DNA of 64,000 nt from Eledone cirrhosa (taxonomy: Eukaryota). This document shows, piece after piece, positions 22,739-24,499 of this stretch (the first letter of the stretch is position 1; each line of letters opens with the position of its first letter). The notes beneath the pieces are model-generated. The model did no database searches. It was not told the DNA's origin and was given only the letters and a program-made list of their open reading frames with translations. The stretch spans positions 4,216,001 to 4,280,000 of the forward strand of contig OZ024746.1 in assembly GCA_964016885.1 (NCBI GenBank), written 5' to 3'. The translations under genes were made by a program, and so were the position numbers.

Positions 22739-22837
<99 letters not shown>

Positions 22838-22897
22838 AAAAAAAGATGAAATCGAAAATGCAACTGGAGTCTTTTTTTAAAAAATATATTTATTTGG

Positions 22898-22941
22898 TTC
22901 CTTTACCGGTTTCGCAGTTCTCGTGCTTTTCAAAAGTAGAA
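22898..22941 (-). ncRNA. Minimal type I hammerhead with U3-A8 core (left arm)
   Basis: Reverse complement: ttc-ta-ctt TTGAAAA gca-cgagaac-tgc GAAA ccg GTA^ aag-gaa. Confidence 0.6.
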
Positions 22942-22989
22942 TTGAGATGGAGGGTTTGTGGTTTTTCTCACCACTACCCTCCATCTCAA

Positions 22990-23033
22990 TTCTACTTTTG
23001 AAAAGCATAAGAACTGCGAAACCGGTAAAGGAA
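22990..23033 (+). ncRNA. Minimal type I hammerhead with U3-A8 core (right arm)
   Basis: ttc-ta-ctt TTGAAAA(22998-23004) gca-taagaac-tgc GAAA ccg GTA^(23027) aag-gaa; palindromic ACCGGT stem III. Confidence 0.6.
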
Positions 23034-24499
23034 CCAAATAAATATATTTTTAAAAAAAGACTCCAGTTGCATTTTCGATTTCATCTTTTTTCCTTATACT
23101 TTCACTCGTGTAGGACACCTCATTTTTCTTTCATTTTATAAAAAAGCCTCACCTTCTAATATTTATTTTCTTTTGGTCGTTTTGGAAGCCTCAACAATGC
23201 AGATGGGTAATTCTCCGGGTAACAAGATCCGGGGGTGAGGAGAGAGATGTAAGTGAATGTAGAATGAGATGTATAGTGTGTAGAAGAACGTAGGAAAGAG
23301 CGTAAAAAAATAAAAATAATAACACAAGATAGAGTTACCTTGGGAGAGATTTAATTGCCCCTATATTTCGGATTCACATCCATCAACTGGGGGGTTTTCC
23401 GAGGGGGGGAGGGGGTTTATCTGTCGGAGAGTAGCGATACGTGTCCTCTGCTGTTCGTTGTTTTGAATAACTATATATATATATATATATACATCGCTCT
23501 CTCTCTCTCTATATATATATATGTGTGTGTGTTTGTGTGTTTGTTTGTGTGTGTGTATATGTGTGTGCGCATGTGTGTGTGCGTGTGTGTGTGTGTGTGT
23601 GTCTGTTCAATGTGTCCATTAACTGAAAGGATAATTTAATTTGTAAATTTATTAATTTACATAAAAAAAGAATTTGAAAAGTATAAAGAGCTGTGAAATT
23701 GTCATCAAGTGAGATAATGTGATATGGTAGCTGGGTAATAGTAATGTAAGGTGATGATATATTGAAGAGGAATGAGGTGTGAGAATTAGAGAGCAAGGGC
23801 AAAAAGAAGGAACAAGATAGGGAGAGATTGCGAAAGAAAAACAGAAAGAGATATAGGGGATATTTGAGTGTAGAATAAAAAGAAATTACAAATTAACATG
23901 GATGCAAAAGTGAAATATTTGGTTTCACTACACCATGAGATCTGTAGACCTGCTAAAAATATAAGTTTGAAAGTAGGGGCAACGGAAAGGAATTCCAGCT
24001 AGATTCTATCAACAAAATCTCCATATAGATTAAATACACAGCTAGTCACTGATATCTAAATGGCTAAATTTCAGCAGAAGGGCACCCAGGAATCATGAAC
24101 TTGATGCGGCCCGGTCCCCTTAAAGTGTAAGAAATTAAGGGCTGAAACATTTGTTTGAAGGGGGTTTCTCCTCTGAAGACCCTCTGCTGTCCACTGAACA
24201 GAAATTATCACAAATTCCACCTATCTCTTTTAAAAAGAAAGGGGAATGTTATGTTCTTCAATACGCAATATGTCTGAGAAATCGACGGAGTGGTCACGTC
24301 TGGTACGCTTTTGAACATTCATCTACTTGATCAGGATCTTCTATCATCAGACCCAATGATGAGTTGAAAATTAGTTCATCTTGTTCTTGAATCATTACGA
24401 ATTTTCTTCAACCAGAACGGGAATCCGACCTGAGATTGGTTCATCTGGAACTGTTCTCTCAGTTAATTACTGCTACAGATGGATATGATGCTGCTCATC

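What the first reader, a model, noticed from the sequence alone, without database searches (positions are those of the whole stretch)
22831..23098. Long hairpin carrying two opposite-strand hammerheads with a U3-A8 covariant core (UUGAAAA)
Seen: each ~125-bp arm contains ctt-TTGAAAA-gca[7-nt loop]tgc-GAAA-ccg-GTA-aag, and the two ribozyme copies differ only in loop II. Established: positions 3 and 8 form a tertiary Watson-Crick pair, and C3-G8 to U3-A8 is a tolerated natural covariation, so standard CUGANGA searches miss it. Inference: the double change suggests a functional ancestor. Transcription in either direction gives both a ribozyme and a long dsRNA that would sequester it and could be an ADAR or Dicer substrate.
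Basis: partly seen in the sequence, partly recalled or inferred. Interest (0 to 1): 0.75.

Follow-up and report, generated by a model that had tools for sequence, protein, structure and literature searches.

The report
Head-to-head Penelope retroelement stub with hammerheads
This hairpin is two short end pieces of a very abundant Penelope-type jumping gene lying head to head, each carrying an already published variant of a predicted self-cutting RNA; it is likely an ordinary by-product of one insertion, and at this spot the ribozyme is predicted to be locked up and silent.

Summary
The hairpin and both U3-A8 hammerhead motifs are real. They are not a locus-specific device. The arms are two 5'-truncated copies of the terminal repeat (pLTR) of a Penelope-like retroelement (RT, cysteine linker, C-terminal GIY-YIG). 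The motif has 13,633 exact matches in this genome, 99.3% of them U3-A8.

In 31 of 31 head-to-head pairs sampled, one arm has the short 3' end and the other the tailed end; 23 of 31 reach a point about 30 bases after a TATA-like box. This fits two cDNAs primed on both target strands and copied to the RNA's 5' end (inferred). Most templates were uncut. A small class of junctions stops at the predicted cut, a hint of occasional cleavage in vivo.

In either transcription direction the antisense arm is made first, so the ribozyme here is predicted silent. No RNA data were available. U3-A8 hammerheads in PLE repeats, opposite-strand pairs, inverted pLTRs and tails are all published. This scan has reported the same kind of thing on other DNA several times.

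The parts
22831..22971 (-). Inverted, 5'-truncated pLTR copy with the short (tail-less) 3' end; reference positions 332-478
   Evidence: Alignment to the pLTR of full-length copy L104; abuts (TA)n
22970..23160 (+). Direct, 5'-truncated pLTR copy with the long 3' end; reference positions 341-541
22970..22971 (.). Head-to-head junction with a 2-base overlap shared by both arms (microhomology)
   Evidence: The two alignments overlap by these two bases
23099..23160 (+).
22995..23030 (+). Minimal type I hammerhead motif: stem I 3 bp, core U3-A8 (22998-23004), stem II 3 bp, palindromic stem III; predicted cut after 23027
   Evidence: Motif scan; activity not tested
22901..22936 (-). Second copy of the motif; U3 at 22933; predicted cut after 22904 on the minus strand
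   Evidence: activity not tested
22777..22834 (.). (TA)n microsatellite at the left end, the likely target site
   Evidence: most sampled arms end in (TA)n

Best explanation
The hairpin is a 330-base stub of a high-copy Penelope-like retroelement, made of two head-to-head copies of the element's terminal repeat, and it likely formed as a by-product of a single insertion. Inferred mechanism: the element's RT-GIY-YIG protein nicks both strands of a (TA)n target and primes one cDNA on each. One starts at the short end and one at the tailed end of the pLTR. Both are copied toward the RNA 5' end, about 30 bases after a TATA-like box, and are joined by microhomology. The hammerhead belongs to the parent element, where it would work as a dimer or with protein help and seems to cut only a minority of RNAs. 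In this stub it is predicted silent: a transcript from either side holds one sense copy, preceded by its own antisense.
For: Shown: 13,633 motif matches, control 0. Full-length copies L102, L104, L106 have pLTR, a 409-aa frame and a 773-775-aa frame; the L104 frame hits RVT_1 (E 1.3e-6, just under the Pfam cut-off) and GIY-YIG (E 2.1e-6); L104 has the motif on the coding strand at both ends of a 4.69-kb unit. Among the first 100 listed matches, neighbours within 6 kb were minus-then-plus 24 times, same-strand twice, plus-then-minus never. Of 100 arms picked by a motif downstream of the ribozyme, 35 end at reference 478 and 54 at 541; 46 begin at 325-333; the TATA-like box is at 298. 31 of 31 directly joined pairs have one short and one long end, as does this one. 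Stem II pairing probability inside the hairpin is below 1e-15. Copies decay alike in core (29 of 1,683 letters, 1.7%) and flank (91 of 4,549, 2.0%). From papers: inverted 5' copy and tail (PMC8557442, PMC3846280), two RT start sites, both strands cut and extended, predicted protein dimer, uncut RNA as main template, protein-assisted ribozyme (PMC11167929).
Against: No transcript, start site or cleavage was observed; the start site is inferred from insertion ends and a TATA-like motif. The tail here is 62-63 bases against 30-40 in the papers read. The anole element tested in vitro is from another clade and starts RT inside its ORF, whereas both ends here lie before the first ATG. A fold-back (self-priming) model, proposed in PMC3846280, can also give head-to-head repeats and fits some junctions (18 of 50 look like snap-backs). 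No target-site duplication could be read in the microsatellite. Family-internal covariation at 3-8 was not found, so ribozyme activity rests on motif, position and literature.
Confidence: 0.88

Rival explanations
1. The hairpin has been adopted by the host as a source of double-stranded RNA (ADAR or Dicer substrate) or as a switch that holds the ribozyme off.
For: It would fold into about 130 bp of duplex from either strand. Small RNAs from Penelope copies are reported in a rotifer (PMC3846280).
Against: It is one of many such pairs (17 within 200 bases among the first 100 listed matches); the arms are 96-98% like other copies with no special conservation; it lacks the TATA-like box.
Confidence: 0.04
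2. It is a self-propagating fold-back mini-element (MITE-like or retrozyme-like) that spreads as a unit.
For: Many pairs have similar size and junction position.
Against: Junctions differ from copy to copy, in position and in overlap (-14 to +14 bases); the two arms within a pair tend to share subfamily letters; full-length coding parents exist. No tandem monomer arrangement as in retrozymes.
Confidence: 0.04
3. The motif is a dead or chance resemblance to a hammerhead and never cleaves.
For: Stem I is only 3 bp here and is not predicted to form in the monomer (P about 0.001). No covariation at 3-8 within the family. About nine in ten arms span the predicted cut (10 of 100 begin at 400 or later).
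Against: All core letters, the G10.1-C11.1 pair and the palindromic stem III match the published PLE pattern, on the sense strand of the pLTR. The three subfamily changes that touch stems (G-U to G-C, a fourth pair in stem II, a fourth pair in stem I) all keep or add pairing, none hits the core (few events). A class of junctions stops at the predicted cut.
Confidence: 0.15
4. Assembly or library fold-back artefact.
For: No listed contig piece bridged the junction.
Against: Arms differ by two substitutions and two indels, have different element-defined ends and follow a rule seen in 31 of 31 pairs.
Confidence: 0.01

Closest known systems
Minimal type I hammerheads in pLTRs of Penelope-like elements, including the U3-A8 variant of Schistosoma mansoni Cercyon elements (Cervera and de la Pena 2014, PMC4209133; parts 1-2 of 4 read)
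   Same: Type I, short stem I, small palindromic stem III, G10.1-C11.1, U3-A8 core, located in pLTR, opposite-strand pairs about 100-700 bp apart, most copies truncated
   Different: Stem II is 3-4 bp rather than 7-8 and there is no extra base between positions 9 and 10.1; copies are homogeneous and very numerous (13,633 against about 1,300 U3-A8 hits there)
C-terminal-endonuclease PLEs of the Neptune/Nematis type with inverted 5' pLTR and tail (Craig et al. 2021, PMC8557442; Arkhipova et al. 2013, PMC3846280; passages read)
   Same: RT, CX2-5CxxC linker, GIY-YIG with internal cysteines, (TA)n targets, partial tandems, inverted 5'-truncated copy, tail on one end, ORF1 apparently set off by a frameshift
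   Different: Tail 62-63 bases rather than 30-40; clade not resolved because no tree was built
Anole Poseidon element PAc in vitro (Frangieh et al. 2024, PMC11167929; parts 1-2 of 4 read)
   Same: Two RT start sites bounding the tail, AT-rich targets, both strands extended, uncut RNA as main template
   Different: Other clade, C3-G8 core, ribozyme overlaps the ORF start; here it lies about 170 bases before the first ATG. That paper found no RNA reads ending at the cut, whereas here some insertion junctions do
Animal non-LTR retrozymes (bioRxiv 10.64898/2026.07.22.740005; part 1 of 5 read)
   Same: Non-coding, type I hammerhead, related to PLE pLTRs
   Different: Retrozymes are head-to-tail tandems with same-strand ribozymes that can dimerise; this is head-to-head with one sense copy per strand

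Membership tests
Endonuclease-bearing Penelope-like element (parent family) | RT followed by C-terminal GIY-YIG endonuclease | tested here: met
   775-aa frame of L104: RVT_1 at 295-441, GIY-YIG at 682-772; the window stub itself has no coding remnant
Endonuclease-bearing Penelope-like element (parent family) | pLTRs from partial tandems, inverted 5' copy, optional tail | tested here: met
   L102, L104, L105; 31 of 31 pairs short plus long
Neptune/Nematis type | CX2-5CxxC motif between RT and endonuclease | tested here: met
   C-x4-C-x2-C read directly in the frames printed; definition from PMC8557442
Neptune/Nematis type | RT phylogeny placing it in one of the two clades | not tested
   No reference set fetched, no tree built
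Minimal type I hammerhead of PLEs | Core letters with a Watson-Crick 3-8 pair, G10.1-C11.1, NUH triplet | tested here: met
   U3-A8 in 149 of 153 aligned copies
Minimal type I hammerhead of PLEs | Short palindromic stem III able to pair between two copies | tested here: met
   6-bp intermolecular duplex, -8.3 kcal/mol
Minimal type I hammerhead of PLEs | Covariation supporting the stems and the 3-8 pair | tested here: inconclusive
   Three structure-compatible subfamily changes; only 2 C3-G8 copies, compatible with chance
Minimal type I hammerhead of PLEs | Self-cleavage | not testable with these tools
   Only an indirect hint from junction positions
Non-LTR retrozyme | Head-to-tail tandem units with same-strand hammerheads | tested here: not met
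   Head-to-head, opposite strands

The most novel reading that the evidence does not exclude
The thousands of head-to-head stubs are a fossil record of the Penelope insertion reaction: every pair joins one cDNA from each of two RT start sites (a two-primer, dimer-driven insertion), most run to the transcription start, and a minority stop at the hammerhead cut, which would be in-vivo evidence that a U3-A8 minimal PLE hammerhead cleaves and that cut RNA can still be inserted.
Probability: 0.4. Interest if true: 0.45.

Novelty: new member of a known kind. Interest (0 to 1): 0.17.

Why it matters
The locus itself matters little. The family is a useful natural data set: how PLEs make inverted ends and tails, and whether their hammerheads cut in vivo, are described as open in PMC8557442 and PMC11167929. 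The 31 of 31 short-plus-long rule and the junction class at the predicted cut make both testable, and young copies with open frames exist. Thousands of such hairpins could also be a bulk source of double-stranded RNA if transcribed, which was not tested.

Tried and rejected
Rfam: the best match over the hairpin was MIR837, far below its cut-off, a generic hairpin match; no hammerhead family among the 150 of 397 rows shown. Search for a C3-G8 sister subfamily: none among the 60 C3 matches listed; 2 with a looser stem II; none of their other 28 fetched nearest loci (89-94% identity) showed C3-G8 in the alignment (2 of 153 rows in all), so rejected as evidence of covariation. The expected chance number is 0.14 for the set and would be higher for older copies, which I did not count. 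One search (129 matches, control 167) showed other C3-G8 repeat families; six of them had no hit to the element's RT frame. A C3-G8 motif near fragments of a 48%-identical PLE in L031 is separated from them by other repeats, so no link is claimed. Cut-site pile-up, results against: 0 of 45 fold-backs have both arms starting exactly at the cut; with a partner arm from the start-site region only 6 of 100 listed (of 169) end at 400 and 22 at 398-402, by eye, as a flat spread would give. RNA: no RNA holder listed, which is no evidence either way. DNA contigs: no listed piece bridged the junction. Two papers were not held; Lunse et al. 2017 on dimeric PLE hammerheads is recalled only. Searches for prior print: (octopus, Penelope, hammerhead) listed nothing on this family by title, and the squid genome paper gave nothing specific. 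Supplements (the alignments and sequence files of PMC4209133 and PMC8557442) were not opened and may already hold this family. No protein homologue search, structure prediction or tree was run.

Full report
Observation. The sequence at 22831-23098 folds into a near-perfect hairpin on either strand. The two motifs differ by two adjacent bases at the start of loop II; the arms also differ by two one-base indels. The left end abuts (TA)n.

It is a repeat. A DNA search of the own genome (3.0 Gb, animal-like; octopus-like by my recall of its SINE and by earlier notes, not tested) gave 762 candidates. An exact 29-base pattern gave 13,633 matches, and 0 for the reversed control. A motif further downstream gave 17,841. 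Of the 13,633, 31 are U3-G8 and 60 have C3, all listed as C3-A8, leaving 13,542 U3-A8.

The parent is a Penelope-like element. Two of the first 30 loci carried RT and GIY-YIG fragments. A protein search led to full-length copies. L104 shows ribozyme-bearing pLTR, a 409-aa frame, an overlapping 775-aa frame, a 3' region and a second pLTR, 4.69 kb apart, with an inverted pLTR upstream. The long frame hits RVT_1 and GIY-YIG and shows a C-x4-C-x2-C linker, the mark of Neptune and Nematis elements (PMC8557442). The ribozyme is on the coding strand, about 170 bases before the first ATG.

Anatomy of this insertion. Against the L104 pLTR, the left arm is positions 332-478 inverted (22831-22971) and the right arm 341-541 (22970-23160), sharing two bases at the junction. 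The TATA-like box at reference 298 is not included.

The arrangement follows a rule. Among the first 100 listed matches, close neighbours were head to head 24 times and never tail to tail. I took the first 100 matches on C1 of the downstream motif, so arms lacking the ribozyme could be seen. Their 3' ends are at 478 (35) or 541 (54), 11 elsewhere; 46 begin at 325-333, 16 run to or past the start of the reference, 2 begin at 400. In these loci 115 arms formed 31 directly joined pairs; all 31 have one short and one long end, and 23 reach 325-338 (two pairs 4 kb apart may be duplicates). One tail-to-tail neighbour was seen.

Mechanism. Published: PLE insertions often carry an inverted 5'-truncated copy and a tail on one end; a purified anole PLE protein cuts and extends both target strands, starts RT at two sites bounding the tail, is predicted to dimerise, and uses mostly uncut RNA. 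Inferred here: two cDNAs, one from each start site, are primed on the two strands of a (TA)n target, copied to the RNA 5' end about 30 bases after the TATA-like box, and joined head to head. A self-priming fold-back, proposed in PMC3846280, is the alternative for some junctions.

Is the ribozyme functional? At this locus it is predicted not to be. In a head-to-head pair the antisense arm is transcribed before the sense ribozyme in both directions, stem II pairing inside the hairpin is below 1e-15, and no same-strand partner exists for the dimer. Inserted copies decay at the same rate in core and flank, although many were selected by core patterns. In the parent it is likely functional: U3-A8 is a natural, active covariation (PMC3088659) already reported in PLE pLTRs, along with opposite-strand pairs (PMC4209133). 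All five subfamily groups keep the core, and the three changes in stems keep or add pairs, though these are few events.

A hint of cleavage in vivo. With the partner arm starting upstream there is no peak. With the partner starting downstream of the cut, the longer arm stops at 398-404 in 38 of 50 matches by eye; a script on the 30 fetched loci gave 23 of 30, of which one is a miscall, against 29% from geometry alone, and 14 of 21 without the snap-back class. In the unbiased set, 2 of the 8 pairs that do not reach the start-site cluster stop exactly at 400. The null ignores microhomology in this AT-rich stretch, so this is suggestive only. The class is small: 50 matches to a strict pattern.

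Not shown: transcription, editing, dicing or cleavage. No RNA run was listed, and DNA contigs did not bridge the junction.

Verdict. A real feature, a new member of a known kind. Interest 0.17; the family-wide junction statistics are the only part worth following.

Noticed in passing
L104 6007-6079; also L101, L102, L105, L106, L107, and a 48%-identical family in L031: The 409-aa frame and the RT frame overlap at a TTTTTTA heptamer in -1 register, kept in two families: likely a programmed -1 frameshift (a splice acceptor is the alternative). No strong hairpin was predicted behind it. PMC8557442 Fig. 1 already notes a frameshifted ORF1 in some PLEs.
   Followed up: partly
window +73, +3366, +41413, +52180, -52001: Five canonical C3-G8 hammerhead-like motifs with longer stems, from other repeat families; similar ones recur in L036-L038.
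   Followed up: partly
L102, L104, L105, L106: Young full-length or tandem copies with open 773-775-aa frames and 99-100% identical repeats: the family is probably recently active.
   Followed up: partly
L141, L142: Two old copies read C3-G8; in L142 the other arm of the same pair reads U3-A8. Chance double change or exchange with another family.
   Followed up: partly
L111-L140, L143-L146: Other repeat families with a C3-G8 core and the same ACCGGT stem III palindrome, some also in head-to-head pairs.
   Followed up: no
window 28694-28774: Weak Rfam mir-263 match (38.9 bits, cut-off 51.3, E 3.8e-6), outside the microsatellite noise.
   Followed up: no
window 20000-20118 and 21830-21945; 25208-25405: Two copies of a SINE-like repeat (label recalled), and an 81-base direct repeat with 117-base spacing.
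   Followed up: no
window 23170-23420: The right flank is itself covered at very high depth by family contigs, so it is another repeat.
   Followed up: no
L031 about 1160-1285: A separate perfect-looking palindrome of about 60-base arms beside (TA)n.
   Followed up: no
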